Positions 26,359 through 47,047 of a stretch of DNA of 64,000 nt are shown here, piece by piece. The stretch spans positions 4,312-68,311 of the forward strand of contig JAUYPE010000002.1 of NCBI GenBank assembly GCA_030697705.1, written 5' to 3'. This DNA comes from a bacterium (GTDB lineage Bacteria; Patescibacteriota; Minisyncoccia; Sungbacterales; HO2-52-23). How positions within the stretch are numbered: position 1 is the first letter of the stretch; each line of letters begins with the position of its first letter. Both the position numbers and the translations under genes were made by a program. Under the pieces are notes generated by a model, which was given only the letters and a program-made list of their open reading frames with translations, was not told the origin of the DNA and did not search any database.

Positions 26359-26673
26359 GGACGATAGAGAAGACCGAAACCTAGACCCTATTTGCTTTAA
26401 TATCTTATCAGAAAACAGAGACAAAATCAAACAAAAACGCCTATTACTTCAAAATAAGAGTATTGGATGAAGTTAGAACCACCCCCCTATATTTTCCCAA
26501 TAAAAACTGAAACGAGATACGCTGTCATTGTGGAAACAACGCTGGACTTTCTAACATATTAGCTTTCCACGCTCAATCTTCAATAATCTCGCCTCAATGT
26601 CCTTTAGTGAGGAGGGTCCGGAATAATCAAGAACATATTCATCTTTCGATTTTTGTTTTATTTCCATTTTCCA

Positions 26674-26889: not shown

Positions 26890-27102
26890 ATGAATAGTAT
26901 CACACCAACTCGTATTTATAATAAATTGACGCGTCTTGAGCAAGAAATCCAACGACTCAAAGCCCAAGCGTATCTTACGCTCCCCCACAAGACACGCACT
27001 ACTCCGCGGTATACGGAAAAAGCGATTATGGAGGCGGTGCGCGGAGTACGCGACACTATCTGGAACGAACGCTATGCCAAAAAGATTACGCGTATTCGTT
27101 GA
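26890..27102 (+). CDS. putative antitoxin (small ORF overlapping PIN gene start)
   Basis: 71-aa ORF (MNSITPTRIYNKLTRLEQEIQRLKAQ...) whose 3' end overlaps the PIN start by 29 nt; family not recognised. Confidence 0.4.
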   Translation: MNSITPTRIYNKLTRLEQEIQRLKAQAYLTLPHKTRTTPRYTEKAIMEAVRGVRDTIWNERYAKKITRIR

Positions 27103-27499
27103 TACGAGCGCGCTTCTTGCCGGACTCAATTCACCTAACGGCGCGGCAGGAGCCATCCTTGCCGCATGTTTTTCGAAACGGCTCATACCCGTTATTTCAC
27201 GGCAAGTCATTGAGGAGGCGGAACGGAATATTGAGATGAAATTCCCCGCGCTTCATCGTGCATGGGAAGCGTTTCTTCGTATCCCGCCAGAACTTGCTCC
27301 GGATCCGTCGTTACGCCAAATCCGCAAAGTACACCAAATCTTGCCTACGAGTGATGCGCCAATTCTTGCAAGCGCGCTCAAAGCGCATCCCGATGCATTG
27401 GTAACATGGAATACTCGGGACTTCCTCCGCAAGGAGGTTATGTTACGCACTCCCTTCCCCATTTTCATCCCACGGGATTTTCTCAAACAATATCTTTAG
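27074..27499 (+). CDS. PIN-domain protein (VapC-like toxin)
   Basis: RVFVDTSALLAGL (first acidic residue), TSDAPILASAL, TWNTRDF - PIN acidic-residue pattern. Start MPKRLRV at 27074, not the extended ORF-track frame. Confidence 0.65.
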   Translation: MPKRLRVFVDTSALLAGLNSPNGAAGAILAACFSKRLIPVISRQVIEEAERNIEMKFPALHRAWEAFLRIPPELAPDPSLRQIRKVHQILPTSDAPILASALKAHPDALVTWNTRDFLRKEVMLRTPFPIFIPRDFLKQYL

Positions 27500-27534: not shown

Positions 27535-28272
27535 TTAAAACATCAACCTTCGAAATGTCTCCGCATACCGCATTTTCTTTTTCTTGCCCTCGTTTTTAGC
27601 GCGAGTACGGATGCGCTCCTCCATTTTTTTGACATCGGGAATTTGGGACTCATGTGCCCGCAGAGCCGCAAGTTTTTTTCCAATGGTTTTGGAAATGTCT
27701 ACAAACATATTCGGTCGGTCGGTACCAAAAAACCACACCCCTTGCATCTGGTGCGGCAAAAGATCCTCCTGTTTGAGTTCGGGGAAAAATGCGTGCGAAG
27801 CGGTCGCCGGATAAATCGCGTCAAATACCGCCTCGGCGGTAATCCGATGGTCGCGGTGAAATCGCCCAAAACTATCAAAGAGATGGTTTCCCGGATCGGC
27901 CGAGAGGACGACATCCGGTTTTACCTCGCGCATAACGCGGATGAGGCGCCGCCGAAGCTCTGCAGTATGCTCCAAATCTCCATCCGTCTCGCGCAAGAAA
28001 TGAATGTCTGAAACGCCGACAATCGCGCCCGCCGCGCGCTGTTCTCTCTCGCGCATAGCTATCATTTCTTCGCAGGTCTGACTGACTTTGTGCGTTCCCT
28101 TCTCGCCGTTCGTTATAATGCAATAGGCGACTTCGTTGCCCTTTGCCGTCAGCGTAGCAATCGTCCCCGCACAGCCGAAGTCAAGATCATCCGGATGCGC
28201 CGAAAAGACAAGAAATTTTCTCGGTTTTGATTTTTTATTTGTCGTACTTTTTACCCTATACGCCATAGACAT
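27535..28272 (-). CDS. LmbE/PIG-L family N-acetylglucosaminyl deacetylase (BshB-like)
   Basis: FSAHPDDLDFGCAGTIATL and HxDH-type motifs (FHRDHRITAEAV). Confidence 0.75.
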   Translation of the reverse strand: MSMAYRVKSTTNKKSKPRKFLVFSAHPDDLDFGCAGTIATLTAKGNEVAYCIITNGEKGTHKVSQTCEEMIAMREREQRAAGAIVGVSDIHFLRETDGDLEHTAELRRRLIRVMREVKPDVVLSADPGNHLFDSFGRFHRDHRITAEAVFDAIYPATASHAFFPELKQEDLLPHQMQGVWFFGTDRPNMFVDISKTIGKKLAALRAHESQIPDVKKMEERIRTRAKNEGKKKKMRYAETFRRLMF

Positions 28273-28320
28273 ACAGACCCAATATCCTTAATTGGGTGAG
28301 GAGACCTTGACCCTTAATAA

Positions 28321-28686
28321 CTACACCTCAATGATCGTGATTTCTTTGATTTTCTGAAACTGGCGATCACGGGTAACGAGCGACACATTTCGGATCATGG
28401 CGGTTGCCGCAATCCCTGCGTCGGGAATCGCAAGCGCATAATTTCTCCGTAGCCGTGCGGCAATTTCCGCAATCGCATCATCAAACGGGATAGATATGAA
28501 ATTGGCGAGAAATGCTTTCGCCTTTGCACTATCCTCTTCCGTGAGTCCGGGAAATGCAAGAGTTTCTGCGATGGTGAGTGAAGAAATAAGGAGAGCTCTT
28601 CCCATCTGTTTCCACTCAGAAAGAGCGTATACCGCTTTTGGCTCGGCATTGAGACACGCAATAATGATATTCGTATCAACGAGCAT
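28321..28686 (-). CDS. PIN-domain toxin VapC
   Basis: MLVDTNIIIA..., ...IAETLAFP..., ...VTRDRQF PIN signature; start at 28686 one nt after the upstream antitoxin stop. Confidence 0.75.
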   Translation of the reverse strand: MLVDTNIIIACLNAEPKAVYALSEWKQMGRALLISSLTIAETLAFPGLTEEDSAKAKAFLANFISIPFDDAIAEIAARLRRNYALAIPDAGIAATAMIRNVSLVTRDRQFQKIKEITIIEV

Positions 28687-28687
28687 G

Positions 28688-28900
28688 CTAAGAAGAAACA
28701 CTCTTGAGTTGTTTTTGCATGCGTTTATTCCACTCTTGACGAATCCGGCGTTGATACCCTACTGCGTCAACTTTTTTTCCTTTCAGTATGCCGATTGCAT
28801 TAGTCCAACTCTTGGGGAGCGGATAGCGCACAGAGTCCACTATTTCAGAAGCCACAATCCCTGCTCTATTTGTTTTTGTCTCTCTTGCTTTTGTTGGCAT
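28688..28900 (-). CDS. putative VapB-type antitoxin
   Basis: 70-aa ORF MPTKARETKTNRAGIVASEIVDSVRYPLPKSWTNAIGILKGKKVD... directly upstream of the PIN gene (SpoVT/AbrB-like swapped-hairpin flavour). Confidence 0.5.
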   Translation of the reverse strand: MPTKARETKTNRAGIVASEIVDSVRYPLPKSWTNAIGILKGKKVDAVGYQRRIRQEWNKRMQKQLKSVSS

Positions 28901-29009
28901 GGATTGCAGTATAACATATATTAAAAAATAAAACAAGAAAAAGCGAGGGTACTGTCCGAGCCGCTCTATGCGCGGGGCAATATAACTGTCACACACAAAT
29001 CAATCATCA

Positions 29010-30085
29010 CATTTCCATCCCGAGGCGTTTTTTAATCTCTGCCACAAGTTCAGGGGAATAACGCTCATACACCCGGTTTCTTGTATTCCGCTGTTGCTCA
29101 AACCATTGAGGATGTACTCTTTATGTATTGCTCGACTATTCTTTTCACCGCAACATCACCAAGTTTACACACTTGTTTTAACTCGTTAAGCCCAAGCCAT
29201 TCAGACCGGACATCAGGAATTGATTTCATTTGAGAGATCCTTTGCTTAATTTCTTGGACTAATTCCGGAGCATAATGTTCAGCCTTTTGGTGTGACTTCT
29301 TAACCTGACGCTTCCCCAGCCATTCGGGATGTTCTGCGCGATATTCTTCAGCAATTTTTCTAATATACTTTGAATAACGAAATGCACCTCTCTGTACACT
29401 TCAAACAAGCCGCAGGCGGTGCGGTTATGACGAGAACATACTCAAAACAAGGAAACTCGAACTGGAACGAACTGAGGAGACCAATGGATCATACGGCGAT
29501 GATTACACGACAAGATACGCTGAAATTGCAGACAGGTAGTGGGTAAGATAGCCGTCAATGGATCGGGGGAACGAGGTGACCAGTCCATAGCAGAGCTTGA
29601 GAATGCGGAAGTGGATCTCAACCCGCATGCGCAGATTGAGTAGCACGATATGGATAGGGGTTGAGAGAATCCACGAATTTCTGATACGAGAGAGGGGGCT
29701 CCATGATCTCCCAGAGTGATTTCTTAGTGGCAATATTTTGCTTCTGCTTCAGGATTGCGCAGGTTACGGCTTCGCTGTTGGTAAGGGCTGATTTCCGACC
29801 TTTGGGATGTTCCCGATCTTTGAGTTTCAATGAATGGAATAGTTGTGATACTCTTGCTTTGAGGGTGTAATAGATTGTAAGGAAGGTGTTCATACAAGTG
29901 GCGGCGTAAGCCGTCCCTTGTATTGTAGCAGAAAAGGTGATGTGGTGCATTTCGTTATTCAAAGTATGGTAGTCATCATACAGCTCGTGGCGTTGGATCG
30001 GGGTTAATCGGGTGCGTTTGTGGATGGTCATGTTGTTTACCGTACCGCCGATAGCCATTCCGGCAATGGCGGAGACTGTAAACAA
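29010..30085 (-). mobile_element. degenerate transposase pseudogene, possibly IS630/Tc1-like, frameshifted
   Basis: 155-aa ORF (29618-30085) with HTH-like RLTPIQRHELYDDY and HPKGRKSALTNSEAV (cf. IS630 N-terminal GRP motif). Downstream frames are broken but translate to ...EHYAPELVQEIKQRIS... and ...RYSPELVAEIKKRLG... (cf. the YSPDLNPIE tail of IS630/Tc1). GC is visibly lower than in flanking genes. Confidence 0.3.
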
Positions 30086-30110
30086 CGCTAGGGATTCTTA
30101 CAAGTAAAAC

Positions 30111-31394
30111 CTACTTCCTCTCATCAAGCTTCACCTTCACGCTTATTTCTTTACCGGCACGGAATACGGTCAAAGTAATTTCCTCACCAACGGCGTGGTT
30201 TTGGACAATAGCCGACAATGCGCGATTCGCATCAATCCGCTCGCCGGCAACGACAAGAATAATATCTCCTTCTTTCAAACCCGCACGGTCAGCCGGACCG
30301 CCGGGCACGACTGCAGGACCGTCGGTATTTTTACCAAGCAATGCGCCGTAATTCCTGCCGAGATTCAAGCTTTTGGCAAGGTCGTCGGTAACGGGCGCGT
30401 ACCGCACACCAAGGTAGGGATAGATTATCTTGCCGGTTTTGCGTACACTCTCAATATCACGTTTAACTTTATTGATGGGAATGGCAAAACCGATGCTCTG
30501 CGCGCCGCTCGCCACGGCGGTATTGATGGCAACCACCTCGCCGTAGACATTGATAAGCGGTCCGCCGGAGTTGCCGGGATTAATTGCCGCATCGGTCTGC
30601 ACCAATTCCTGCAATGCCTCTGGACCGTCCGCTCCGCCATTAGCAACGATGGAACGCTGAAGACCGGAGACGACGCCAACTGAAACGGTATTGCGGAATT
30701 CGCCGAGCGCATTACCGATGGCGATGACGGTCTGCCCGATTTTAATTGCTGAAGAATCGGCAAGTTTAAGAAACGGCAAGTTTGAGCCGGTTATCTGCAG
30801 AATCGCCAGATCCTGCACGGGATCGCGCGCCAAGACCTTCGCGGGCAATTTTTTGCCGTCGTTCGTGAGAACGGTAAAGTCCGCAGTTACATCGGCGACG
30901 ACATGTTTGTTCGTCACAATAAACCCATCGGCTGATACGATGAATCCACTTCCCGCAGAAACTTCTTGCCGTTTCGTCCCGTTTTGGCGAAGTTGCGGCA
31001 CTTGAAGGTTTGGATTCTCACCAAAAAATTGCTTAAAGAATGGGTCATCGCCGAATGGATCCACAAAATACCGCTCAATAATGGGAACATCTTTACTCGC
31101 CACTATACTGACTACGGCGGGTGAGGCGTTTTTGACCACCTGTACCACCAGTTCATCGGAGCGAACGATGCGCTCAATAGCCTCTTTTGTTTCGGGCGTT
31201 ACCGGCTTATCGCCCGACTTTTGCCGCGGGAAAAAATAAGATGGAATAATCGCCTCCTGGCTTACCATGGAACCGCGCCCGAAAACGCCAAGCACAAGCG
31301 TTGTGCCGATGAGCGAGGCGAGAAAACTTAACACGACGGCGAAAATAACCATCTGGCGCATGGTCGGCTGGGGTTGTTGTTGATGATCGGGCAT
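30111..31394 (-). CDS. htrA: HtrA/DegP-family serine protease with PDZ domain
   Basis: N-terminal TM; trypsin-like catalytic motifs (TNKHVV, DLAIL, GNSGGPLINVYGEVVAINTA); C-terminal PDZ. Confidence 0.85.
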   Translation of the reverse strand: MPDHQQQPQPTMRQMVIFAVVLSFLASLIGTTLVLGVFGRGSMVSQEAIIPSYFFPRQKSGDKPVTPETKEAIERIVRSDELVVQVVKNASPAVVSIVASKDVPIIERYFVDPFGDDPFFKQFFGENPNLQVPQLRQNGTKRQEVSAGSGFIVSADGFIVTNKHVVADVTADFTVLTNDGKKLPAKVLARDPVQDLAILQITGSNLPFLKLADSSAIKIGQTVIAIGNALGEFRNTVSVGVVSGLQRSIVANGGADGPEALQELVQTDAAINPGNSGGPLINVYGEVVAINTAVASGAQSIGFAIPINKVKRDIESVRKTGKIIYPYLGVRYAPVTDDLAKSLNLGRNYGALLGKNTDGPAVVPGGPADRAGLKEGDIILVVAGERIDANRALSAIVQNHAVGEEITLTVFRAGKEISVKVKLDERK

Positions 31395-31514
31395 AGGAAA
31401 AACTTTACATTTGAAACTCTGACAAGACCCTCCCTACTCTACCATACGGAACAACAATCGCAAAAGGTGCCTCACAAGGATATGCGCGGCATGGACTCTC
31501 CTAAAAAATACCCA

Positions 31515-31739
31515 TTACACCGCCTCAACACATCGCACCTCGGGCACGGCTTGTTTGAGCATCTCCTCAACTCCCGCTTTGAGCGTCAATTGCGAGAGCG
31601 GACAGCCGTGGCAAGTCCCAAGAAGTTGGACGAAAACCGTCCCCGTCCCCTCCTCAAACCGCACAAACTCAATATTCCCCAAATGCCTCGCCAGCATCGG
31701 CCTGATCTGCCCAAGCGCTTTTTCAATTTGTTCGATCAT
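31515..31739 (-). CDS. Nfu/NifU C-terminal-domain Fe-S cluster carrier
   Basis: 74 aa, GTCHGCPLSQLTLKAGVE CxxC motif typical of the Nfu domain. Confidence 0.7.
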   Translation of the reverse strand: MIEQIEKALGQIRPMLARHLGNIEFVRFEEGTGTVFVQLLGTCHGCPLSQLTLKAGVEEMLKQAVPEVRCVEAV

Positions 31740-31792
31740 AAAAGCCCTTATCTTAGCACTAACAGCCCAAGTTTTTCTTTGGCAATAAATTC

Positions 31793-32467
31793 TTACTGAC
31801 TACCACTCCTTGCAGATTCATCAACTAGTCTACTCTGAAGTTCTTTAGCTACTTTGAGTAGTTCTTCCATAGGATAGTCTTGTCGTCCAAGAAAGCCCCT
31901 TTCCGCACCCTTGTCTTTAAATTCCTCATAACGATCAATGAAATACTCCTGAATAAAACTAATCATCTCACTGGCAGGGAACCCCCTCATCCTCTCTCTA
32001 ACTTGTTCGTCAGTTAGTTTTTCTCCTCTACTTTGAGCATCTTGCGTTATCTTTTTTTCAACTATCAGGGAGAGGTTGTGGTCATCAAGCATGGATCGCT
32101 CCATTTTTAACTTTTCTATCAACTCCATTTTCCGACTATCTGTCGGCTTATTTTCTCTCTTCGCTTTCTCTATGGTCTCCTCATTGACGAATATTGCGTT
32201 ACGCAGGTTATACCATACCATGCTTGAAGTGCCCGCTTTTACATCAGCGGGTATCTCCAATTTTTTAGATCTTTCTAGTTTTCTATCCTGTTCTGCTTTT
32301 TCAAAACCCCTCGCTATTTTTCCTTCGGGATCATCCATTGTCATCGCTTTTGAATAATCCATCGTACCGTCAGGATTTCTTTTTGCACCAACAAAAATCC
32401 GGCTCTTTGGTTTTTCCTGCTCTGAAGGTTGTTCGGGTGTAGACCCACCCATTTCAGGACTTTTCAT
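31793..32467 (-). CDS. hypothetical Lys/Glu-rich protein
   Basis: ORF only; charged low-complexity sequence; no family recognised. Confidence 0.35.
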   Translation of the reverse strand: MKSPEMGGSTPEQPSEQEKPKSRIFVGAKRNPDGTMDYSKAMTMDDPEGKIARGFEKAEQDRKLERSKKLEIPADVKAGTSSMVWYNLRNAIFVNEETIEKAKRENKPTDSRKMELIEKLKMERSMLDDHNLSLIVEKKITQDAQSRGEKLTDEQVRERMRGFPASEMISFIQEYFIDRYEEFKDKGAERGFLGRQDYPMEELLKVAKELQSRLVDESARSGSQ

Positions 32468-32522
32468 AGTTTTTGTTGACCATACTCTTAGGATTAAATA
32501 TGCGGTTTACGACTGTATAATG

Positions 32523-33122
32523 TCACTCTCTAAACTGCTCAAGCTTCATCCGCTCAATCACGCCATTCACCTGCTCCCAGTTCAGATTCTTGAAAAATAC
32601 CTCAATGTACTCCTTGCGCGCCGTGGCAAAGTCCAGAAAATACGCGTGCTCGTACACATCCATAATAAAGAGTGCGACTGCTCCCCACACACCGCCCTGA
32701 TTGTGCGAGTCACAGAGGTAGTTTCGCAATGTGCCGTCTTCTAAATCAAAAGCGAGAATCGCCCACCCCCGCGCCGCAATACCGAGCGCCTTGAACTCTT
32801 CCATCCACTTTTCGTATGAACCAAAATCCTCCTCAATCCACTGTTTGATCATACCCGTCGGTTCGCTCCCGCCCGCTTTCATATTATCAAAATACCCCTC
32901 ATGGAGGCGGATGCCGTTTAACGCGAATGTCTCTTCGCGCTTGAGCTCGCCGAACTCCGAATAGGTCGCATTTGCCGCCGCGTGGTCAGTGACTTTTAAC
33001 TTCTCCTGTATCTCGTTCCATTTTTTGACATACCCCGCATAGAGCACATCGTGGTGCTCTTTTAACTGCTTCTCGGAAATCCCCTCCAACTGCGTATACG
33101 GCAATGGTTTTTGTCCTTTCAT
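32523..33122 (-). CDS. sodA: Fe/Mn superoxide dismutase
   Basis: KPLPYTQLEGISEKQLKEHHDVLYAGYV (N-terminal SOD signature) and DVYEHAYFLDF (C-terminal D-x-W/Y-E-H-A-Y-Y motif). Start MKGQKPLPY (33122) has an aagagg SD. Confidence 0.85.
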   Translation of the reverse strand: MKGQKPLPYTQLEGISEKQLKEHHDVLYAGYVKKWNEIQEKLKVTDHAAANATYSEFGELKREETFALNGIRLHEGYFDNMKAGGSEPTGMIKQWIEEDFGSYEKWMEEFKALGIAARGWAILAFDLEDGTLRNYLCDSHNQGGVWGAVALFIMDVYEHAYFLDFATARKEYIEVFFKNLNWEQVNGVIERMKLEQFRE

Positions 33123-33132
33123 AATCCTCTTC

Positions 33133-33242
33133 GTCATCCCGAACGGAGTGACTGCCAGCAGGCGTCCCGTGAGGGAGGGATCCCTCACAGCTTCAGTATA
33201 AACTGAATGTTAACGGGATTCCTCGCTCACGCTCGGAATGAC
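33133..33242. repeat. MITE-like palindromic repeat, copy D
   Basis: gtcatcccgaacggagtgactgccagcaggcgtcccgtgagggagg...ctcgctcacgctcggaatgac. Its first ~45 nt are near-identical to the reverse complement of copy E (45824-45929). Abuts the SOD ribosome-binding site. Confidence 0.75.
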
Positions 33243-33254
33243 ACGAAAAATATA

Positions 33255-33503
33255 TTACGGAAAAATCTGATTCCCTTCTTCGTCAAAAATCAAAATCGCC
33301 TGCGTGGGGCATGATTTCGCGGCGAGGAGAATCGTCTCGTCGTCCGCCCCGTGGTCATTATACACCACCGCCTTATTCTCGCCATCCAGCTCAAACACGC
33401 CGGGCGCCACGGCAATGCACGACGCTGCCCCAATGCAGAGATCGCGATCCACAACGATCTTCCCAATCTTTAAGGGCTTTGATTCTGGTTTTTGGTCATC
33501 CAT
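33255..33503 (-). CDS. ferredoxin (single [3Fe-4S]/[4Fe-4S] cluster type)
   Basis: 82 aa, CIGAASCIAV...KSCP Cys pattern. Confidence 0.7.
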   Translation of the reverse strand: MDDQKPESKPLKIGKIVVDRDLCIGAASCIAVAPGVFELDGENKAVVYNDHGADDETILLAAKSCPTQAILIFDEEGNQIFP

Positions 33504-33524
33504 AACAAGTGCGAGACAAACTGC

Positions 33525-33731
33525 TTAGCGAACAGATTTTAATACCCCTTCTTTGCGAGTATGCTTTTTTGAGAAACGCTTGCTTGCGTCAAGTATCTCA
33601 ACATACAAGGGAATCCCCTTGCTATCAAGATCAACCATAATGCCGGGAGCGATTTCGCGCGTTTCAGCCACCTTGCCCCTCTTAAAGGTCAGGTTTACGG
33701 CATCAGCAACAGGATCATAAGAATAGTTCAT
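33525..33731 (-). CDS. DUF2283-family protein (putative antitoxin partner)
   Basis: 68 aa MNYSYDPVADAVNLTF...GIMVDLDSKGIPLYVEILDAS, pattern of DUF2283; overlaps the upstream gene by 4 nt. Confidence 0.55.
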   Translation of the reverse strand: MNYSYDPVADAVNLTFKRGKVAETREIAPGIMVDLDSKGIPLYVEILDASKRFSKKHTRKEGVLKSVR

Positions 33732-33970
33732 GGAAGTGAGTTTGTAAAGTATTGGGTAATAACAACGATTCTATCATCTTCTCGCACAAAAATGACTTTG
33801 AGATATTTTTTACCAACCTTGTAAAACGCAAGAAACTTGTCTGATTCCATGATGAGCTTCTCCGGTGCGTCTATCGCACTATACACCATTTCCCGGGAGA
33901 TACTTCGTTGCCCTAATTTTTCTAATGCGTGCCGCGTAAAAATAATTTTCACCATGGAACGGAAAACCAA
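33728..33970 (-). CDS. DUF4258-family protein (putative toxin partner)
   Basis: 80 aa, IIFTRHALEKLGQRSISREMVYSAI...; DUF4258/DUF2283 are a known co-occurring pair. Confidence 0.5.
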   Translation of the reverse strand: MVFRSMVKIIFTRHALEKLGQRSISREMVYSAIDAPEKLIMESDKFLAFYKVGKKYLKVIFVREDDRIVVITQYFTNSLP

Positions 33971-33972
33971 TG

Positions 33973-35097
33973 CTACCCATAATACTTCTCCTTGTAGAAT
34001 CTGATCAACTGTTCAACTTCCGTGATAATTTCGGGCGAGCCGACGCCGACTTTGAGTTTTTTCTGCACCGTCTCCAGATCAACCGCGCCCTCAAGCACCG
34101 CCTCTTCTATGTCTTTGTCGGTAATGTTGAGTTTGACATCAATCACCTTCGCTCCCTCTATCATAACCCGTTCGTTCTGATTTGTCCTGCGAAAATAATC
34201 ATTCGCCGCTTTGCGAAACGCCTTGTCCGCCAAAACAGAACAGTGAATTTTTCTATTTGGTAAACCACCCAACCGATCCATAATGTGCTGGGGTTTTATT
34301 TTTAATGCTTCGCCCAAAGGCAGGCCGCCGTTTTCCGTTACCATAACCGAAAACATAGATGTCGCCGCAATCGCCGAACCGCAGCCAAAAGTTCTCCATT
34401 TCATCTCCGCGACTTTTTCGGTTTGCGGTTCAATTTTTAGCCACATCTTCATCATATCGCCGCAATTATGGACAAGAAACGCACTCGTCGCGTAGGTATG
34501 AGAGTCTGCAACTTCAAAATTATACAGTCGTCCACCTTCAAACGACATAGTCTCTACATGCTCAATCGGTAGCTCAATGTGGTGACGCTCCCCCACAACC
34601 GGATAAAGGCAAATATCTTTCGCCTTAAGATCTCCGGCATGCGCCCATGTAATAGGCGCATATGCGTTCGATTCAGACATATATTGCTTTGCATAGATGA
34701 GATGGTCGGGTGTCGCAATAATTTCCCCTTGGAAATTCTTGATTTTTATGAGTGAACCCGCTTGATACCTCACACGAAACGCCTTCTCAACAGGATAGTA
34801 TCCAGAATCATGACTCAATACTTTTTCACCAACTTGAATGTTGGGAATCTCTTTCAGACCAGCCCCCGTCAACACTAATGTTTCAGGCGCAAGGCAGGCG
34901 GGCGAGCCGACCATCCCCGTCGCGTCATAAGCATTTTCATCCGGCTCCTCAAGCATGAGATTGCGCGGATTGAAAAAATGCTCTTTGACGATATCCGAAT
35001 AGTACCACCGCTCGCCGGTGAATTGGTTGACCACATCCCCCGCCGCGAGCCCCCCCTCGGGAATCGGTTTCTTTTCTTTAACTTTTTGATTATCCAT
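33973..35097 (-). CDS. IscU/NifU-type Fe-S scaffold protein interrupted by a mini-intein
   Basis: N-extein ...YSDIVKEHFFNPRN...GMVGSPA | intein | CGDMMKMWLKIEP...FGCGSAIAATSMF...LPNRKIHCSVLADKAF (IscU signature with all three Cys); C-terminal BFD/NifU-like tail without Cys. Confidence 0.8.
   Translation of the reverse strand: MDNQKVKEKKPIPEGGLAAGDVVNQFTGERWYYSDIVKEHFFNPRNLMLEEPDENAYDATGMVGSPACLAPETLVLTGAGLKEIPNIQVGEKVLSHDSGYYPVEKAFRVRYQAGSLIKIKNFQGEIIATPDHLIYAKQYMSESNAYAPITWAHAGDLKAKDICLYPVVGERHHIELPIEHVETMSFEGGRLYNFEVADSHTYATSAFLVHNCGDMMKMWLKIEPQTEKVAEMKWRTFGCGSAIAATSMFSVMVTENGGLPLGEALKIKPQHIMDRLGGLPNRKIHCSVLADKAFRKAANDYFRRTNQNERVMIEGAKVIDVKLNITDKDIEEAVLEGAVDLETVQKKLKVGVGSPEIITEVEQLIRFYKEKYYG
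34465..34896 (-). other. mini-intein (144 aa, no homing-endonuclease domain) inserted at the GSPA^CGD active-site Cys of IscU
   Basis: Block A CLAPETLVLT, block B GEIIATPDHLIY (TxxH), block F/G YNFEVADSHTYATSAFLVHN followed by +1 Cys (CGDMM). Confidence 0.8.
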
Positions 35098-35120
35098 AGT
35101 GAGGCGTTGTTTAGCGTTAT

Positions 35121-35790
35121 TCTGTCATTCCCGACTTAATCGAGAATCTATGATTCCTATCTTGCGTCGTAAACGATATTAGAACCATATTCCATCTGCA
35201 AATTGGATCATTTTGCCCATGAGGACACCGCAAAAATTACCCAAAATGGGGGTAAAAGTGTGAAGATACCTATAACTACAGAGGGCAAGAGGTATAAAAG
35301 GTTAAGGAGTAGCTTGAGCTTTTTTCCGGTTAGATCACCAATCCTAATTTTTGCCCCATCTTTATAGTGCTTCAAGTTTTCTTTGAACTCATTATCAATG
35401 GACTCCGATAGATAAATGTACAAAGCAAGAAAAACTATAGCAGGAATCATCACAAGGGTAGCATAGGGAGCGACTCTTAAAAGAATGGGGTGTGGATAAT
35501 TGAATGTTTTGTATAACTCATTAAGCGTCGGATAAAGATAAAGATGAACATACAAAAGGAGCAAGCTATCCGCAATTGCAATAAAAAGTGCTACATTTTT
35601 TATACGCTTTAGCACCGTCCACGCCTTCTCTTTTTCTATAGTACGATTCCTACGCTTCATAGCTATTAATACGGATAGGATAGGGACCAGAATTAACAGG
35701 CCATATATATAGGAAGTACTCATAGTTTTTATTTACGATAACTTTATAAAATCCTCTGCTTCTGGATTCCCGCTTTCGCGGGAATGACAG
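35121..35790. mobile_element. segment bounded by a perfect 12-bp inverted repeat (ctgtcattcccg / cgggaatgacag) carrying a low-GC passenger gene
   Basis: IR arms at 35122-35133 and 35779-35790 share the gtcattcc TIR core of the MITE family. The enclosed membrane-protein gene is much more AT-rich than flanking nifS/iscU. Confidence 0.5.
35208..35723 (-). CDS. hypothetical 4-TM membrane protein (passenger within IR-bounded segment)
   Basis: ORF with 4 hydrophobic segments; AT-rich codon usage. Confidence 0.45.
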   Translation of the reverse strand: MSTSYIYGLLILVPILSVLIAMKRRNRTIEKEKAWTVLKRIKNVALFIAIADSLLLLYVHLYLYPTLNELYKTFNYPHPILLRVAPYATLVMIPAIVFLALYIYLSESIDNEFKENLKHYKDGAKIRIGDLTGKKLKLLLNLLYLLPSVVIGIFTLLPPFWVIFAVSSWAK

Positions 35791-35800
35791 GATTAAGATT

Positions 35801-37075
35801 TCACTTATAATTCTTCCCGCCTACTTTTATTTTAGACCCTTGACCGGCAAACGCCTCCGGGTGGGACACATCCATCTGCCCCATTTCCAGCCGTACGGGA
35901 GAGATTTGGCGCAGTTTTTCTACAATACCAGGAAAAACTTCCATGACATAATCCAAATCCTCCTTCGTCGTACGGTGGCCGAGCGTAAAGCGGAGCGATC
36001 CGTGCGCGTACTCATACGGTCGTCCAATGGCGAGAATGACATGCGAAGGGTCGAGCGTCGTAGAGGTACACGCCGAACCGGTGGAGATGTAAATGCCCTT
36101 TGAATCCAGATACAAAATAACCGCCTCGCCTTCAATATCCAAAACCGACATATTCACATTATTAGGCAGACGCTTTATCGGATGACCGTTCAAGACAACT
36201 TTTGGAATCTCGGTTATGAGTCGGTGCGTTAAGTAATCGCGAAGTTCAATCAAACGCGCGTTTTCTTTTTCTTTCTCCGCATGCGCGAGTTCAAACGCTT
36301 TGGCAAAACCGATAATACCCGGCACATTTTCCGTCCCAGAACGGAGATTATTTTCCTGCCCGCCGCCGTGGATAATGGCCTTGAGCCGTGTCCCGCGCTT
36401 TACATAAAGACACCCGACACCTTTGGGACCGTACATTTTTGAGCCATTTATCGCGAGCAGATCAACGCCTAATTTTTCAACATCCATCTCAAGCGCGCCC
36501 GCCGCTTGGCACGCGTCGGTATGGAAATAAATCGGCGTCGCGTTTCCGGCAATTTTACGCTCCGCGCGGATATCTTTTATAACTTTGGCAATCTCCGGAA
36601 TCGGTTCAATGGTACCGATCTCGTTATTGGCATACATGATAGAAACAAGAATCGTATCCGGTTCTATCGCGCGGCACACCGCTTCCGGATCAACGAGTCC
36701 GTCCTCATCAACCGGCAGGTAGGTAGTGCGAAACCCTTCTTTTTGCAGTGCTTCACATGAGTGCAAAACGGCGTGATGCTCAATCGCGGAGGTGATAATA
36801 TGCCTCCCCTTATCTCCGTACATGTGGGCTATACCAAAAATTGCCAAATTAATCGCCTCCGTTCCTCCGCCGGTAAAAATCAACTCCTCCGACTTGCAAT
36901 GCAAAATGTGAGCGACCGTTTCGCGCGCCGCGTCTAGTGCCTCTTTTGCGCGCCTCCCCGGACGGTACAAAGACGAAGGATTGCCGAATTCACCTTCCCA
37001 AAACGGCTCCATCGCCGCTTTTACGCGCGAGTCAAGGTAGGTCGTCGCCGCATGATCTAAATACACTTCTCGCAT
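35801..37075 (-). CDS. cysteine desulfurase (NifS/IscS, class V aminotransferase)
   Basis: YLDHAATT, PLP-lysine region (INGSKMYGPKG), catalytic loop SGSACTS. Confidence 0.85.
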   Translation of the reverse strand: MREVYLDHAATTYLDSRVKAAMEPFWEGEFGNPSSLYRPGRRAKEALDAARETVAHILHCKSEELIFTGGGTEAINLAIFGIAHMYGDKGRHIITSAIEHHAVLHSCEALQKEGFRTTYLPVDEDGLVDPEAVCRAIEPDTILVSIMYANNEIGTIEPIPEIAKVIKDIRAERKIAGNATPIYFHTDACQAAGALEMDVEKLGVDLLAINGSKMYGPKGVGCLYVKRGTRLKAIIHGGGQENNLRSGTENVPGIIGFAKAFELAHAEKEKENARLIELRDYLTHRLITEIPKVVLNGHPIKRLPNNVNMSVLDIEGEAVILYLDSKGIYISTGSACTSTTLDPSHVILAIGRPYEYAHGSLRFTLGHRTTKEDLDYVMEVFPGIVEKLRQISPVRLEMGQMDVSHPEAFAGQGSKIKVGGKNYK

Positions 37076-37247
37076 AAAAAATTATTACTCTTGCCATCCA
37101 GTATACGGTATGCCCCACCGTTGTCAATAAAAGTATTGACAACGGTATAAAATAAATGTATACATAAGGGGAGGCCGTGCCCTTTGACATCAGTCGCGCG
37201 TCTTCTGCCGCGACTTCACCATCCGCAAAACCGCGAAGGAGTACGAC

Positions 37248-38444
37248 ATGCCGCTCAATCCTTTCAGGTTCTCTGAAAAAGCTCGCACCTATTATGGCAG
37301 AGTATTCCCACGCATTGAGCTTGTTGCGGCCCATATAGATGAAGAGTATAGCATTTCAGCCGCTGCGAGAGAGGAGATTATGCGTGATCTTGCCAAACTC
37401 CCCAAAAAAATCGCTGCATCCGCCTCAACTCTGGGAAATGATGCCGCTCAACTCCGCGCCGCTTATGCGCACCTTAATGGGAGGGATAGAGAAAAATGGG
37501 AAGAGATGATGGCACACGATCATGCCATTACGCGCCCTCTGAAAAGATTATTGAAAGACGGCATCACGACATGGGAGCAGGTGAAAGAACGGGCGACTGC
37601 GCAACAACGCCTGAATGAACAAGAACCGCCGCTTGATGATTCAACAGCACGTGAGACGGAACAAGAAACACCACCGGAGCCGGTACAATATGATGATCCT
37701 CGCCCAGCGTCACCAATGGATGAGCGATCATCAACTACCCACCCCTTCCTTTTCCTTAAAGCATTAGCGTCGGCAAGCGCAACAGTGCTGGGAGAATTGG
37801 GGCGGGTAGCCGAAGAGGTGACCTATCTTCTTGATGCCCGAGCTCGCGACCAGCGCCTTCTGGTACGCCAGAGCGAGCTTGAGACACGAAACGCACAACT
37901 CACAGAGCAGATCGCTCTCCTAGAGGAGACAAGGCGAACAACACAGAAGCGGCTTGCCGGTGCAGAGCACCGCATCCAGATACTCACCCAACAAGTAAAG
38001 GAGCTCGCGCCACGGCGTTTGGAAGAACTTGCGGAACTTTTTCCAAGTATCCCGGCACTGTTCAAATGCGCCGACGACATCCGTGAGGAGATGCGAAAGC
38101 GTGAGGATATAGTCAACTCGTTGCCCACAAAGCTCCTTTGGCTCGGAAACCATGACGGCAAACCGAAAGAGATGGTGTCCATGGTCTATCATCCCCCTTT
38201 TAAAGCGTATTTCAGCGACGCGGATCACGAGATTAGAGAGGCGGTCATAAAACAAATTCACTTCCTGTGCGAAGAGGGACCGCATCACAAGTCCCTTGAT
38301 ACCAAACGGAACAAAAATCCAACTCCTCCCCACACGCCGGATGAGCATATGTATATCCGGATAAAAATCGGCCTGCGGGCCACCTGCTCAAAGGAAGGAT
38401 CAGAACTTCACTTTTACAATATCATTCCGCGAGGTGATCTATGA
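37248..38444 (+). CDS. hypothetical coiled-coil protein with possible RelE/ParE-like C-terminal domain
   Basis: 398 aa on the plus strand, a rare orientation here. Acidic linker, heptad-like central region (LLVRQSELETRNAQLTEQIALLEETRR). C-terminus ...HMYIRIKIGLRATCSKEGSELHFYNIIPRGDL is reminiscent of a RelE-fold tail. Confidence 0.35.
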   Translation: MPLNPFRFSEKARTYYGRVFPRIELVAAHIDEEYSISAAAREEIMRDLAKLPKKIAASASTLGNDAAQLRAAYAHLNGRDREKWEEMMAHDHAITRPLKRLLKDGITTWEQVKERATAQQRLNEQEPPLDDSTARETEQETPPEPVQYDDPRPASPMDERSSTTHPFLFLKALASASATVLGELGRVAEEVTYLLDARARDQRLLVRQSELETRNAQLTEQIALLEETRRTTQKRLAGAEHRIQILTQQVKELAPRRLEELAELFPSIPALFKCADDIREEMRKREDIVNSLPTKLLWLGNHDGKPKEMVSMVYHPPFKAYFSDADHEIREAVIKQIHFLCEEGPHHKSLDTKRNKNPTPPHTPDEHMYIRIKIGLRATCSKEGSELHFYNIIPRGDL

Positions 38445-38580
38445 TATGAGATGATGCTCACATAGTCATTCATGGGCGCAGAAACATTATACGTACGGAA
38501 CCAAAACCCATCAAACTTTGTTTGATGGGTTTTTCATGCACAATCAAAAAAAGATATCTGGTTGGTACCACACAGCTCCC

Positions 38581-39108
38581 CTATCCCTTCCCCAGCGTAT
38601 TCTGTCCCGGTTCCCACTCAACTGGACAGCGCTCACCCGTTTGAAGCGCCTGAACCGCGCGAAGTACCTCTTTGACCGAACGACCGACAGCATTATCCGA
38701 AACCATAAACCATCGCAGGTTACCCTCCGGATCAATGATAAATGTCCCTCGTTCGGAGGCGCCGTCCGCGGCGAGCACGCCGTACGCGCGCGAGATATCG
38801 TGAGTGGTGTCCGCCACAATGGGATACTTTACCATCGCTAAATCCCTTTCAAACCAATTTTTATGCGACCACTCGCTGTCCGTTGAACAGGCAAGAATAG
38901 CCGTATGATATTTTTCAAATTCTTCTTCCAGCCGCGCAAACTCCTTCAGCTCCGTCGGACATACGAAGGTAAAATCCCGCGGATAGAAAAACAAAACCAC
39001 CCACTTTTTCCGATAATCGGCAAGCGAGACGCGCACAAAGTCATCCCGTCCCGCCTGATAGGCGATTGTTTTATCAAACTCCGGCGCTTGTTGGCGTAAG
39101 CTCATCAT
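38581..39108 (-). CDS. peroxiredoxin (AhpC/TSA family)
   Basis: FTFVCPTE peroxidatic Cys motif. Confidence 0.8.
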   Translation of the reverse strand: MMSLRQQAPEFDKTIAYQAGRDDFVRVSLADYRKKWVVLFFYPRDFTFVCPTELKEFARLEEEFEKYHTAILACSTDSEWSHKNWFERDLAMVKYPIVADTTHDISRAYGVLAADGASERGTFIIDPEGNLRWFMVSDNAVGRSVKEVLRAVQALQTGERCPVEWEPGQNTLGKG

Positions 39109-47037: not shown

Positions 47038-47047
47038 TTTGCATTTA

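What the first reader, a model, noticed from the sequence alone, without database searches (positions are those of the whole stretch)
31515..37075. Essential Fe-S assembly gene string invaded by four different selfish or foreign elements
Reading 5' to 3' on the minus strand, the string is:
- nifS
- an IR-bounded low-GC passenger gene
- iscU carrying the intein
- a DUF4258/DUF2283 toxin-antitoxin-like pair
- ferredoxin
- MITE copy D
- sod
- a hypothetical gene
- nfu

This is an unusually high density of parasitic DNA inside a housekeeping operon. It may reflect addiction: insertions in essential transcripts are hard to lose. It may also point to regulatory co-option.
Basis: inference. Interest (0 to 1): 0.6.

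Follow-up and report, generated by a model that had tools for sequence, protein, structure and literature searches.

The report
Fe-S operon with variable selfish inserts
The iron-sulfur cluster assembly operon of an uncultured groundwater CPR bacterium really is interrupted by a degenerate intein, a toxin-antitoxin-like pair, small palindromic repeats and two orphan genes, but relatives show this is normal, fast turnover of spacer DNA in this lineage and not a special "addiction".

Summary
On the minus strand the order is nifS, a low-GC orphan membrane gene, iscU with a 144-aa mini-intein, DUF4258/DUF2283, ferredoxin, a MITE-like repeat, sod, an orphan gene, and nfu.

About 45% of the 5.56-kb string is not backbone. 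Eleven related loci share the backbone nifS-iscU-fdx-sod-nfu(-htrA), and one of them (L083) is fully compact. The inserts have different ages:
- **Intein:** old and clade-wide. Most relatives carry a full LAGLIDADG form at the same site, just before the first cluster-ligand Cys. Here the endonuclease is deleted.
- **MITE D:** shared with the nearest relatives, L163/L164 (about 85% DNA identity).
- **TA-like pair:** sits in the same slot in two other genomes but is missing from the nearest relatives. The same two-gene module occurs on Thermus and Microvirga plasmids.
- **Two orphan genes:** lineage-specific.

Relatives fill the same slots with other cargo (GIY-YIG, Fic, HicB-like genes, other MITEs). 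Junctions outside the string are just as variable.

So "invaded" is right. "Hard to lose" is contradicted for the spacer inserts, and co-option is untested. The most noteworthy item is the IscU intein family, which I did not find in the searchable literature.

The parts
37100..37127 (-). Promoter-like site upstream of nifS: TTGACA, 16-nt spacer, TATACT. A 10-nt perfect palindrome at 37118-37141 overlaps the -35 element.
   Evidence: scores it 11 of 12. A matching TTGACG...TATACT is visible by eye upstream of nifS in L164 (sequence printed).
35801..37075 (-). nifS, the cysteine desulfurase and first backbone gene.
   Evidence: It is 92% identical at the amino-acid level in L163/L164.
35767..35793 (.). 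Upstream MITE-end-like hairpin, CTGTCATTCCCGCGAAAGCGGGAATCC, lying between nifS and mem171.
   Evidence: Sequence read. It folds at -13.6 kcal/mol with z = -4.0. An independent unitig, L172, breaks inside it.
35208..35723 (-). mem171, a 171-aa orphan protein with four predicted transmembrane segments. GC is 0.38. It is a lineage-specific insert.
   Evidence: No hit in Pfam, NCBIfam, PHROGs or PADLOC. Only one homologue was found among 5.8 billion sequences, at 52-55% identity. It is absent from all 170 related loci.
35121..35148 (.). Downstream MITE-end-like hairpin, GATTCTCGATTAAGTCGGGAATGACAG, inverted relative to the hairpin at 35767-35793.
   Evidence: Inverted repeat I11. Sequence. It folds at -9.0 kcal/mol with z = -2.7.
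33973..35097 (-). iscU/nifU-type scaffold precursor of 374 aa. The spliced product would be 230 aa and carries a Cys-less BFD-like C-terminal extension.
34465..34896 (-). Class-1 mini-intein of 144 aa. It has Cys1, a TPDH block B and a C-terminal HN, followed by the +1 Cys, which is the first Fe-S ligand. It has no homing endonuclease.
   Evidence: The alignment with full-length LAGLIDADG alleles at the same site (P0003/L164, P0013, P0016, L129) is.
33728..33955 (-). DUF4258 protein of 75 aa, a candidate toxin of the RelE/ParE (BECR) superfamily.
   Evidence: PF14076, E = 5.2e-9. Family placement is from PMC11980606. The start codon was revised.
33525..33731 (-). DUF2283 protein of 68 aa, a candidate antitoxin. 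Its start overlaps the DUF4258 stop by 4 nt.
   Evidence: PF10049, E = 7.2e-12. The same DUF4258-then-DUF2283 module occurs on Thermus and Microvirga plasmids. On an Acidiphilium plasmid DUF2283 is paired with a RelE/ParE toxin.
33255..33503 (-). Single-cluster 4Fe-4S ferredoxin, a backbone gene.
   Evidence: It is 100% identical at the amino-acid level to L163/L164 over residues 9-82.
33132..33245 (.). MITE-like palindromic repeat, copy D, in the fdx-sod spacer.
   Evidence: Family copies are at 15541-15633, 21927-22012, 23406-23481, 26231-26362 and 45823-45931. As RNA on the transcript strand it folds at -59.9 kcal/mol with z = -5.6. A shorter orthologous copy is present in L163/L164.
32523..33122 (-). 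Fe/Mn superoxide dismutase, a backbone gene.
   Evidence: It is 94% identical in L163/L164 and about 60% in L083 and L129, but only 36-41% in L037, L081, L161 and L165.
31793..32467 (-). hyp224, an acidic helical protein from a rare family. GC is 0.41 and GC3 is 0.36. It is a lineage-specific insert in the sod-nfu slot.
   Evidence: No family hit. The family has 87 cluster representatives among 1.84 billion proteins. Homologues sit elsewhere, downstream of an HTH_3 gene. The AF2 model has pLDDT 82.8 with no match in PDB or BFVD. L164 has an unrelated 191-aa ORF in this slot.
31515..31739 (-). nfu (NifU C-terminal-type carrier), the last Fe-S gene of the string.
   Evidence: PF01106, E = 1.4e-24.
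30111..31394 (-). htrA-type serine protease, the conserved downstream neighbour of the string.
   Evidence: The synteny is seen in L037, L083, L161, L163, L169 and L171.
37082..38595 (+). Window-specific 1.5-kb segment between prx and nifS that holds orf398 (37248-38444, plus strand). This is a sixth insert, just outside the stated coordinates.
   Evidence: The blastn blocks against L163/L164 show only 150 nt at this position. No Pfam family was found.

Best explanation
**What it is.** This is the minimal NifS/IscU-type Fe-S assembly operon (nifS-iscU-fdx-sod-nfu, followed by htrA) of an uncultured CPR/Patescibacteria bacterium. Its labelled IscU relatives are Candidatus Sungbacteria.

**What happened to it.** In this clade the operon's intergenic spacers behave as permissive, fast-turnover slots. 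Small promoter-less genes, TA-like modules and MITE-like palindromes are repeatedly gained, replaced and lost there. The iscU reading frame carries an old intein allele.

**How each part works**
- **Intein.** Shown from sequence: it interrupts IscU immediately before the first cluster-ligand cysteine, which serves as the +1 nucleophile. It retains every residue needed for class-1 protein splicing. It has lost the LAGLIDADG endonuclease that its relatives keep. Inferred: it must splice to give functional IscU, it can no longer home, and only a precise deletion could remove it.
- **TA-like pair.** Shown: DUF4258-then-DUF2283 is a translationally coupled two-gene module that also occurs on plasmids of unrelated phyla. 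Inferred: it acts as a RelE/ParE-superfamily toxin with its antitoxin.
- **MITE-like copy and flanking hairpins.** Shown: they are non-autonomous repeats. Inferred: they form strong stem-loops in the transcript. No U-tract was seen by eye after MITE D or the two mem171 hairpins, although the consensus scan lists weak terminator-like sites inside coding regions.
- **mem171 and hyp224.** Shown: they are low-GC accessory genes of unknown function, inserted co-directionally. Inferred: they are expressed by read-through from the single nifS promoter.

**Overall reading.** The density of inserts reflects tolerance of co-oriented spacer insertions plus general intergenic flux in this genome. It does not reflect a retention mechanism specific to essential transcripts.
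For: - **Gene identities:**
- **Conserved backbone with variable slots** in L037, L081, L083, L129, L161, L163/L164, L165, L169, L170 and L171.
- **Spacer ranges:** nifS-iscU 22 to 2062 nt; iscU-fdx -8 to 716 nt; sod-nfu overlap to 783 nt.
- **Other cargo in relatives' slots:** GIY-YIG (1e-10), UPF0150/HicB-like (1.3e-11), Fic (2.8e-7), other MITE-like palindromes and orphan ORFs.
- **Block-wise DNA comparison with L163/L164:** homology breaks at gene ends. It stops 5 nt after the iscU stop and resumes about 27 nt inside fdx. Nine of 11 junctions across roughly 28.0-41.8 kb are variable.
- **Intein:** same site and clear homology with full LAGLIDADG alleles. The endonuclease has been deleted independently in different genomes, because P0004 has different deletion boundaries. 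The spliced sequence aligns seamlessly to solved IscU.
- **MITE family mobility:** there is a filled site in the L163/L164 nfu-htrA spacer where the window is empty. Copy D is orthologous. The family is enriched only in the window and L163/L164.
- **TA module on plasmids:**
- **Composition:** the inserted genes have GC 0.38-0.44 against 0.50 for the window.
- **Transcription signals:** one strong promoter-like site lies upstream of nifS, and terminator-like sites are no more frequent than in shuffles.
- **Assembly:** an independent unitig, L172, is 100% identical over mem171-iscU-TA-fdx.
Against: - No transcript data exist, so the single-transcript idea and read-through expression of the inserts are inferences.
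- A weak terminator-like hairpin lies inside the 3' end of mem171 (35237-35255) and could make that insert polar.
- The nearest relative available is only about 85% identical in DNA. 'Lineage-specific' is shown; 'strain-specific' is not.
- Within the 64-kb window the string is roughly 5-fold richer in such elements than the remainder. For example, 0-15 kb is compact. Some local preference therefore cannot be excluded.
- The TA pair recurs in the same slot in three genomes, always next to an intein-bearing iscU. Pure random flux does not predict that.
- The functions of mem171 and hyp224 are unknown, and they could contribute to the operon's role.
Confidence: 0.7

Rival explanations
1. Selfish elements accumulate in this operon because insertions inside an essential polycistronic transcript cannot be deleted without harming the host, so they ratchet up over time.
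For: - The intein sits at an essential cysteine of an essential scaffold and persists even after losing its endonuclease.
- A TA-like module is addictive by nature.
- MITE D has persisted since the split from L163/L164.
- The string is about 5-fold richer in such elements than the remainder of the window.
Against: - Slot contents differ completely between genomes about 15% diverged, so they are replaced and not accumulated.
- Compact operons exist in the same clade: L083 throughout, and the iscU-fdx-sod part in L161 and L165.
- The closest relatives lack the TA pair.
- Junctions flanking the string (dedA|prx, prx|nifS, nfu|htrA, htrA|PIG-L) are equally variable.
Confidence: 0.12
2. The recombination hotspot is driven by the intein's homing endonuclease. 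Repeated cleavage of intein-less iscU alleles and repair from foreign donors co-converts the flanks. This makes the slots next to iscU hypervariable and lets the adjacent DUF4258/DUF2283 module hitch-hike with intein-bearing alleles.
For: - Full LAGLIDADG inteins are common in this clade.
- The two largest and most variable slots directly flank iscU.
- In all three genomes that have the TA pair (the window, the P0002 contig and L129), it begins 2-13 nt after the stop of an intein-bearing iscU.
- The TA pair was never seen next to an intein-less iscU.
Against: - Intein-less relatives L037 and L081 also have large, filled slots.
- Intein-bearing L161 and L165 have no iscU-fdx slot.
- The sod-nfu slot and the slots outside the string vary just as much.
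- The sample is too small for statistics.
- The extein DNA identity to L164 (85-87%) is not unusual compared with nifS at 84%.
Confidence: 0.1
3. Some of the 'inserts' are functional, selected members of the operon and not parasites. For example, the DUF4258/DUF2283 pair or the hairpin repeats might regulate Fe-S assembly, or mem171 and hyp224 might act in metal or oxidative-stress handling.
For: - The TA pair keeps intact ORFs and the same 4-nt overlap in the same slot in genomes whose IscU exteins are only 64% identical.
- MITE D is retained in the orthologous spacer and folds very stably.
- All window inserts are co-oriented with the operon.
Against: - The closest relatives lack the TA pair, mem171 and hyp224.
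- hyp224 homologues sit in unrelated contexts.
- The TA module is found on plasmids of unrelated phyla.
- The inserts have deviant GC.
- MITE D's arms are about as diverged as the coding DNA by my reading, so there is no sign of extra constraint.
Confidence: 0.07
4. The mosaic is an assembly artefact, that is, a chimeric MAG contig joined at repeats.
For: - The string contains repeats at which de Bruijn assemblies break.
- The record is a MAG.
Against: - An independent Logan unitig is 100% identical across mem171-iscU-TA-fdx.
- The backbone is collinear with at least 10 other assemblies.
- The P0002 contig, from another sample, shows the order iscU(mini-intein)-DUF4258-DUF2283-fdx.
Confidence: 0.01

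Closest known systems
Mycobacterial SufB (Pps1) intein in the suf operon
   Same: Both are class-1 Cys inteins inside an essential Fe-S assembly protein, which must splice before the pathway can work. The SufB intein has been studied as a sensor of oxidative and nitrosative stress (Topilina et al. 2015, cited in PMC4760082; see also PMC6034842 and PMC8891592).
   Different: - The host protein is the IscU/NifU scaffold, not SufB.
- The insertion is exactly at a cluster-ligand cysteine, which doubles as the +1 nucleophile.
- The window copy is an endonuclease-less mini-intein.
- The hosts are CPR bacteria and DPANN archaea.
- No splicing or redox data exist.
Homing-cycle decay of LAGLIDADG inteins to mini-inteins
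   Same: Full-length alleles with an endonuclease, endonuclease-deleted alleles and empty alleles coexist at one site among close relatives. The homing-cycle model predicts this pattern (reviews PMC7765530 and PMC8966425).
   Different: Nothing unusual. Independent deletions with different boundaries (the window and P0002 versus P0004) are simply a clear example.
Type II toxin-antitoxin modules of the RelE/ParE (BECR) superfamily, DUF4258 family (PF14076)
   Same: It is a small, two-gene, translationally coupled module. The toxin family is classified within RelE/ParE (PMC11980606). The same DUF4258-DUF2283 pairing occurs on plasmids, and DUF2283 is also paired with an annotated RelE/ParE toxin.
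   Different: - The order here is toxin first. PMC11980606 lists antitoxin-toxin as the usual order for DUF4258 and lists no characterised member.
- DUF2283 is not an established antitoxin family.
- Activity is untested.
Bacterial MITE/REP-like intergenic palindromes (for example Neisseria Correia elements, ERIC, RUP; recalled from my own knowledge)
   Same: The elements are 86-132 nt long with about 30-nt terminal inverted repeats. They are multi-copy, intergenic, co-transcribed with operons and form stable RNA hairpins. They also show presence/absence polymorphism between related genomes.
   Different: - No target-site duplication was detected.
- No cognate transposase was found in the 64-kb window.
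- The family seems restricted to this genome and L163/L164.
LAGLIDADG-encoding insertions in CPR rRNA genes (PMC11270868)
   Same: The same bacterial radiation habitually tolerates self-splicing elements with LAGLIDADG endonucleases inside essential genes.
   Different: Those are RNA-level insertions in rRNA genes. This one is a protein-level intein in a protein-coding gene.

Membership tests
Intein (class 1, HINT fold) | N-terminal Cys/Ser nucleophile, block B TxxH, C-terminal His-Asn, and a +1 Cys/Ser/Thr on the C-extein. | tested here: met
   The sequence shows Cys68, T-P-D-H in IIATPDHLIY, and ...LVHN211 followed by Cys212.
Intein (class 1, HINT fold) | In-frame insertion in a conserved host motif, where removal restores a contiguous host protein. 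| tested here: met
   The spliced sequence reads GMVGSPA-CGDMMK and aligns without a gap to IscU 4eb5_C (E = 2e-27). Intein-less orthologues such as P0057 and P0104 have exactly this junction.
Intein (class 1, HINT fold) | Profile or sequence similarity to HINT/intein domains. | tested here: met
   - PF07591: 29.6 bits, above its 27.7 cutoff.
- TIGR01443 (C-terminal): 17.2 bits, above 15.6.
- TIGR01445 (N-terminal): 20.2 bits, below 24.5.
- PDB matches: BIL domain 2lwy at 3.3e-5 and gp41-1 intein at 2e-4.
Intein (class 1, HINT fold) | Homing endonuclease domain. This defines a mobile intein, not a mini-intein. | tested here: not met
   There is no LAGLIDADG domain in the window copy. Relatives at the same site have PF14528. 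The window copy is therefore a mini-intein.
Intein (class 1, HINT fold) | Protein-splicing activity. | not testable with these tools
   This requires expressing the precursor.
Type II toxin-antitoxin module (RelE/ParE superfamily, DUF4258) | Toxin belongs to a recognised toxin family. | tested here: met
   PF14076 DUF4258 scores 36.7 bits, above its 25-bit cutoff, with E = 5.2e-9. The family is listed within RelE/ParE in PMC11980606.
Type II toxin-antitoxin module (RelE/ParE superfamily, DUF4258) | Small adjacent partner gene, co-directional and coupled, with the pairing recurring in unrelated genomes or mobile elements. | tested here: met
   - The 4-nt overlap is seen here, in L129 and in the P0002 contig.
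- The pair occurs on a Thermus plasmid (adjacent genes) and on a Microvirga plasmid (4-nt overlap).
Type II toxin-antitoxin module (RelE/ParE superfamily, DUF4258) | Toxicity of one product and neutralisation by the other. | not testable with these tools
   No member of DUF4258 is characterised, according to the table in PMC11980606.
Type II toxin-antitoxin module (RelE/ParE superfamily, DUF4258) | Recognised as a defence or TA model in curated defence libraries. | tested here: not met
   Neither protein has a hit in PADLOC or NCBIfam.
MITE-like non-autonomous repeat | Short, non-coding, with terminal inverted repeats. | tested here: met
   The copies are 86-132 nt long. The roughly 30-nt terminal repeat is GTCATYCCGA...GGATCCCGT and its complement.
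MITE-like non-autonomous repeat | Multiple dispersed copies, more than expected by chance. | tested here: met
   There are at least six copies in 64 kb. The end motif is found 13 times against 3.4 expected. GGGAATGACA with up to one mismatch is found 11 times against 3.8 +/- 1.8.
MITE-like non-autonomous repeat | Presence/absence polymorphism at orthologous sites (mobility). | tested here: met
   L163/L164 have a same-family copy in the nfu-htrA spacer where the window has none. Copy D itself is shared.
MITE-like non-autonomous repeat | Target-site duplication. | tested here: not met
   I found no consistent direct repeat flanking copies A-E when inspecting the flanks by eye.
MITE-like non-autonomous repeat | Cognate autonomous element or transposase with the same ends. 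| tested here: not met
   No transposase or integrase domain was found among the roughly 60 window ORFs scanned. The remainder of the genome was not available.
Repeat-bounded mobile unit carrying mem171 | Matching inverted ends beyond chance, and the whole unit found elsewhere or absent from an otherwise identical empty site. | tested here: inconclusive
   - The ends are 12 nt perfect, which is chance-level as a bare inverted repeat, but they are MITE-end-like.
- The unit is absent from L163/L164, yet the whole spacer there is unrelated and holds a different 128-nt palindrome, so no clean empty site exists.
- The only homologue, P0122, has no retrievable DNA.
NifS/IscU-type (NIF/ISC-like minimal) Fe-S assembly operon | Class-V PLP cysteine desulfurase adjacent to a U-type scaffold with three conserved Cys ligands. 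| tested here: met
   - NifS TIGR03402 scores 502 bits, slightly below the equivalog cutoff of 530.75.
- The first ligand motif aligns to 4eb5 as CGD, the second as GC, and the third Cys lies in (I/M)HCS.
- nifS-iscU adjacency is seen in nearly all 160 loci.

The most novel reading that the evidence does not exclude
The inteins at the cluster-ligand cysteines of IscU may be an undescribed family that acts as a post-translational gate on Fe-S assembly.

- Site a, before the first ligand Cys, is seen in many Parcubacteria and in a Woesearchaeote.
- Site b, before the second ligand Cys, is seen in another Woesearchaeote.
- Splicing would depend on the redox or metal state of the very cysteine that later binds the cluster. 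The operon also encodes SOD and lies next to a peroxiredoxin.
- The adjacent DUF4258/DUF2283 module may travel with, or stabilise, the intein-bearing allele.
Probability: 0.12. Interest if true: 0.7.

Novelty: new member of a known kind. Interest (0 to 1): 0.4.

Why it matters
Each component is a known kind of element: an intein, a type II TA-like module, MITE-like repeats and orphan cargo genes.

Three things are worth recording:
1. **An IscU/NifU intein family at the Fe-S ligand cysteines.** It is common in Parcubacteria and present in DPANN archaea. I could not find it in the searchable literature, and the public name lines I saw for these proteins ('iron-sulfur cluster assembly scaffold protein', 'NifU-like protein') do not mention it. 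It parallels the mycobacterial SufB intein, which is studied as a redox-sensitive switch and drug target.
2. **A natural series at one site.** Full, endonuclease-deleted and empty alleles occur among close relatives, which is useful for homing-cycle studies and as a source of small Cys-inteins.
3. **Spacer turnover in reduced genomes.** Even in very small CPR genomes, the spacers of an essential operon turn over quickly and collect co-oriented cargo.

None of this overturns current understanding.

Tried and rejected
- **Phage origin of mem171 and hyp224.** There were no hits in IMG/VR, the INPHARED phage collection, PHROGs or PADLOC.
- **orf398 C-terminus as a RelE-like fold.** The single-sequence AF2 model was unusable (pLDDT 36), so this is left open.
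- **Integron-like cassette idea** (promoter-less ORFs flanked by hairpins). No integrase or transposase domain was found in the window ORFs scanned, and the hairpins are MITE-end-like, not attC-like. Rejected for lack of support.
- **The inverted repeat as proof of a mobile unit.** Simulation shows that 12-nt inverted repeats at this spacing are expected by chance.
- **DNA of the P0002 and P0122 contigs.** Both come from the same ENA sample and might show mem171 next to nifS in a second genome. The DNA could not be retrieved.
- **Structured RNAs.** There were no Rfam matches in 31300-38700 even at E up to 1.
- **Literature.** Searches for intein + IscU, intein + NifU and intein + candidate phyla radiation found nothing relevant.
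- **dN/dS for the TA pair.** Not attempted, because the only retrievable orthologue (L129) is 37-53% identical and synonymous sites would be saturated.

Full report
**1. What is in the sequence**

Window 31515-37075 holds nine co-directional minus-strand genes with short spacers. Profile searches identify them:
- NifS, 35801-37075.
- A 171-aa protein with no family hit ('mem171'), 35208-35723.
- An IscU/NifU_N scaffold of 374 aa, 33973-35097.
- A DUF4258 protein.
- A DUF2283 protein.
- A single-cluster ferredoxin.
- An Fe/Mn SOD.
- A 224-aa protein with no family hit ('hyp224').
- An Nfu-type carrier, followed by HtrA.

Two start codons need correction. SOD most likely starts at ATG 33122, and DUF4258 at ATG 33955.

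One strong promoter-like site (TTGACA-16-TATACT, 37127-37100) lies upstream of nifS. A similar site is visible upstream of nifS in L164. Terminator-like sites are not enriched (15 found against 9.1 +/- 3.3 in shuffles). No Rfam family matches.

**2. The intein**

IscU residues 68-211 (window 34465-34896) form a 144-aa HINT insert. It begins CLAPETL, contains TPDH (block B) and ends LVHN, followed by Cys212. Intein and HINT profiles and solved inteins match weakly but significantly.

Deleting the insert gives GMVGSPA-CGDMMK. This aligns without a gap to Archaeoglobus IscU in structure 4eb5 and to intein-less orthologues. The insertion is therefore immediately N-terminal to the first cluster-ligand cysteine, which is the +1 splice nucleophile.

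A homologue search shows the allele is common:
- About half of the best 120 IscU relatives are about 600 aa long and carry a LAGLIDADG_3 domain. Those that have names are Ca. Sungbacteria, Giovannonibacteria and Yanofskybacteria.
- A few are minis: the window itself, P0002, P0004, P0047 and P0052.
- Many are intein-less, with 85-91% extein identity.

The alignment shows the window copy is an endonuclease-deleted derivative of the full allele found in its nearest relative, P0003/L164. P0004 has different deletion boundaries, so the deletions are independent.

A Woesearchaeote (L003) has the intein at the same site. Another (L010) has one before the second ligand Cys, TFG|C...HN|CASALA.

I found no paper on IscU or NifU inteins in the held library. 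The known Fe-S precedent is mycobacterial SufB.

**3. The toxin-antitoxin-like pair**

DUF4258 (PF14076, 5.2e-9) is placed in the RelE/ParE BECR superfamily, with unknown activity (PMC11980606). DUF2283 (7.2e-12) starts 4 nt before the DUF4258 stop codon.

The same DUF4258-then-DUF2283 module lies on a 7.7-kb Thermus thermophilus plasmid and on a Microvirga plasmid. On Acidiphilium pACRY06, DUF2283 follows an annotated RelE/ParE toxin. That recurrence on plasmids of unrelated phyla supports a mobile two-gene module. Activity is not shown.

**4. The repeats**

The family is 86-132 nt long with terminal inverted repeats of about 30 nt (GTCATYCCGA...GGATCCCGT). It has copies at 15541-15633, 21927-22012, 23406-23481, 26231-26362, 33132-33245 (copy D) and 45823-45931. 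Copy D fills the fdx-sod spacer. On the transcript strand it folds at -59.9 kcal/mol with z = -5.6.

mem171 is flanked by two small hairpins. Their outer 12 nt form a perfect inverted repeat (CTGTCATTCCCG / CGGGAATGACAG) and resemble the family's ends. As a bare inverted repeat this is chance-level, so 'IR-bounded passenger' is plausible but not proven.

No target-site duplication was found, and no transposase or integrase was found in the window.

**5. Synteny test**

The nearest relatives are two groundwater contigs, L163/L164:
- DNA identity is 81-88% in aligned blocks.
- Amino-acid identity is NifS 92%, Fdx 100%, SOD 94%, Nfu 95% and HtrA 92%.
- Their gene order is pap2-dedA-MFS-prx-nifS-iscU(610 aa, full intein)-fdx-sod-ORF191-nfu-htrA.

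Homology with the window breaks at gene ends. The segments compare as follows.

| Window segment | Content in the window | Counterpart in L164 |
|---|---|---|
| 37082-38595 | orf398 | 150 nt |
| 35076-35800 | mem171 | 202 nt holding a different 128-nt palindrome |
| 33480-33967 | TA pair | 505 unrelated nt with a 51-aa ORF and another MITE-like element |
| 31744-32529 | hyp224 | 649 nt with an unrelated 191-aa ORF |
| 28224-30111 | window-specific DNA | 246 nt |

Conversely, L164 has three things the window lacks: an MFS gene, the intein's endonuclease, and a same-family MITE in the nfu-htrA spacer. MITE D is shared, in a shorter form. Overall, 9 of 11 junctions across roughly 28.0-41.8 kb differ, both inside and outside the Fe-S string.

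More distant relatives keep the backbone and vary the slots.

| Locus | Layout |
|---|---|
| L083 | Fully compact, 3.4 kb from nifS to nfu |
| L161 | Full intein, otherwise nearly compact |
| L165 | nifS-ORF319-Fic-iscU(mini-intein)-fdx |
| L037 | No intein; a GIY-YIG gene and others between nifS and iscU; an ORF plus a MITE-like sequence between iscU and fdx |
| L081 | No intein; 1.2-kb and 0.4-kb filled slots |
| L169-L171 | Rrf2-nifS-[0.8-0.9 kb]-iscU(full intein)-[0.3-0.5 kb]-fdx-sod-small membrane ORF-nfu |
| L129 | Full intein, DUF4258/DUF2283 in the same slot (37% and 53% identity), and a HicB-like gene between sod and nfu |

A 2.6-kb contig from another sample also reads iscU(mini-intein)-DUF4258-DUF2283-fdx.

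**6. The orphan genes**

- **mem171.** It has one homologue among 5.8 billion sequences, at 52-55% identity and with conserved motifs, so it is a real gene. It has four hydrophobic segments.
- **hyp224.** It belongs to a rare family of 87 cluster representatives. The homologues that could be inspected lie downstream of an HTH_3 gene, not in Fe-S operons. The model is confident but matches no known fold.
- **Composition.** Both genes, like the TA genes, have low GC (0.38-0.44 against 0.50).

**7. Interpretation**

About 2.5 kb of the 5.56-kb string (45%) is non-backbone DNA. The elements have different ages:
- The intein is old, clade-wide and now immobile.
- MITE D predates the split from L163/L164.
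- The TA pair is patchy but recurrent in this slot.
- mem171 and hyp224 are lineage-specific, as is orf398 just upstream.

The best reading is that this clade's Fe-S operon has permissive spacers with rapid gain, replacement and loss of co-oriented cargo, as part of a more general intergenic flux in this genome. An intein allele is also decaying along the homing cycle.

The 'hard to lose' idea fits the intein, because only a precise deletion could remove it, and perhaps the TA module. It is contradicted for the spacer inserts by their turnover and by the compact relatives. Regulatory co-option is untested. The strongest hint is the very stable, positionally retained MITE D hairpin, and the conceptual parallel with the redox-sensitive SufB intein.

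An assembly artefact is excluded by an independent, 100%-identical unitig and by collinearity with other assemblies.

**8. Limits**

- There are no transcript or biochemical data.
- The closest genome available is a different species.
- The within-window enrichment (about 5-fold) is post hoc.
- The co-occurrence of the TA pair with intein-bearing iscU rests on three genomes.

Noticed in passing
window 37082-38595 (orf398 at 37248-38444, plus strand): A 1.5-kb window-specific segment lies between prx and nifS and is divergent from nifS. It encodes a 398-aa coiled-coil-rich protein with no Pfam family. Its C-terminus looked RelE-like by eye. L163/L164 have only 150 nt at this position.
   Followed up: partly
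window 28224-30111: A window-specific 1.9-kb segment lies downstream of htrA, where L163 has 246 nt. It contains a 24-29-nt near-perfect inverted repeat (29360-29388 / 29944-29972) that brackets most of the small ORFs with no family hit.
   Followed up: partly
window 46641-47061: A low-GC (0.37) gene of the 23S rRNA-intervening-sequence protein family (PF05635, 1.6e-25) is flanked by a 34-nt inverted repeat. It is inserted between ftsE and prfB. It looks like another small mobile cargo gene inside a housekeeping gene row.
   Followed up: partly
L037, L081, L161, L165 versus window 32523-33122: The SOD at the conserved operon position is only 36-41% identical to the window SOD in relatives whose flanking genes are 70-92% identical. 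The more distant L083 and L129 have the window type at about 60%. This suggests in-place replacement of sod by a different SOD lineage.
   Followed up: no
L010 10444-12246; L003 10152-11984: Woesearchaeota IscU proteins also carry LAGLIDADG inteins. L003 has one at the same site as the window. L010 has one at a second site, immediately before the second cluster-ligand Cys (TFG|C...HN|CASALA).
   Followed up: partly
window 37118-37141: A perfect 10-nt palindrome (GTTGTCAATA-CTTT-TATTGACAAC) overlaps the -35 element of the nifS promoter and may be an operator. An Rrf2-family regulator gene precedes nifS in L037 and L169-L171, but not in the window, L161 or L163/L164.
   Followed up: no
window 35720-35740 and 32464-32484: The two low-GC orphan genes, mem171 and hyp224, share an 18/21-nt similar leader that runs into the start codon (…AAAAACTATGA). 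This could be chance in AT-rich DNA, or it could hint at a common cassette type.
   Followed up: no
window 26936-27499 and 26231-26362: A PIN_3-domain protein, a candidate TA toxin (1.4e-10), lies about 570 nt from MITE copy C. It is another TA-like gene outside the Fe-S string.
   Followed up: no
window 41489-41819 and 42457-42784: A duplication of about 330 nt (81-93% identity) is spaced about 960 nt apart. It covers paralogous low-GC ORFs of 176-179 aa with no family assignment.
   Followed up: no
L164 7832-7959 and 10117-10197; L163/L164 nfu-htrA spacer: The nearest relative's Fe-S operon carries its own set of palindromic repeats. It has a different 128-nt element between nifS and iscU, a GTCATTGCGAG-type element between iscU and fdx, and a same-family MITE between nfu and htrA that the window lacks.
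   Followed up: yes
window 33976-34180 (IscU residues ~307-374): The CPR/DPANN IscU has a conserved C-terminal extension with a faint BFD-like [2Fe-2S] domain signal (E = 0.0098) and no cysteines. It may be a degenerate remnant of the NifU middle domain.
   Followed up: no
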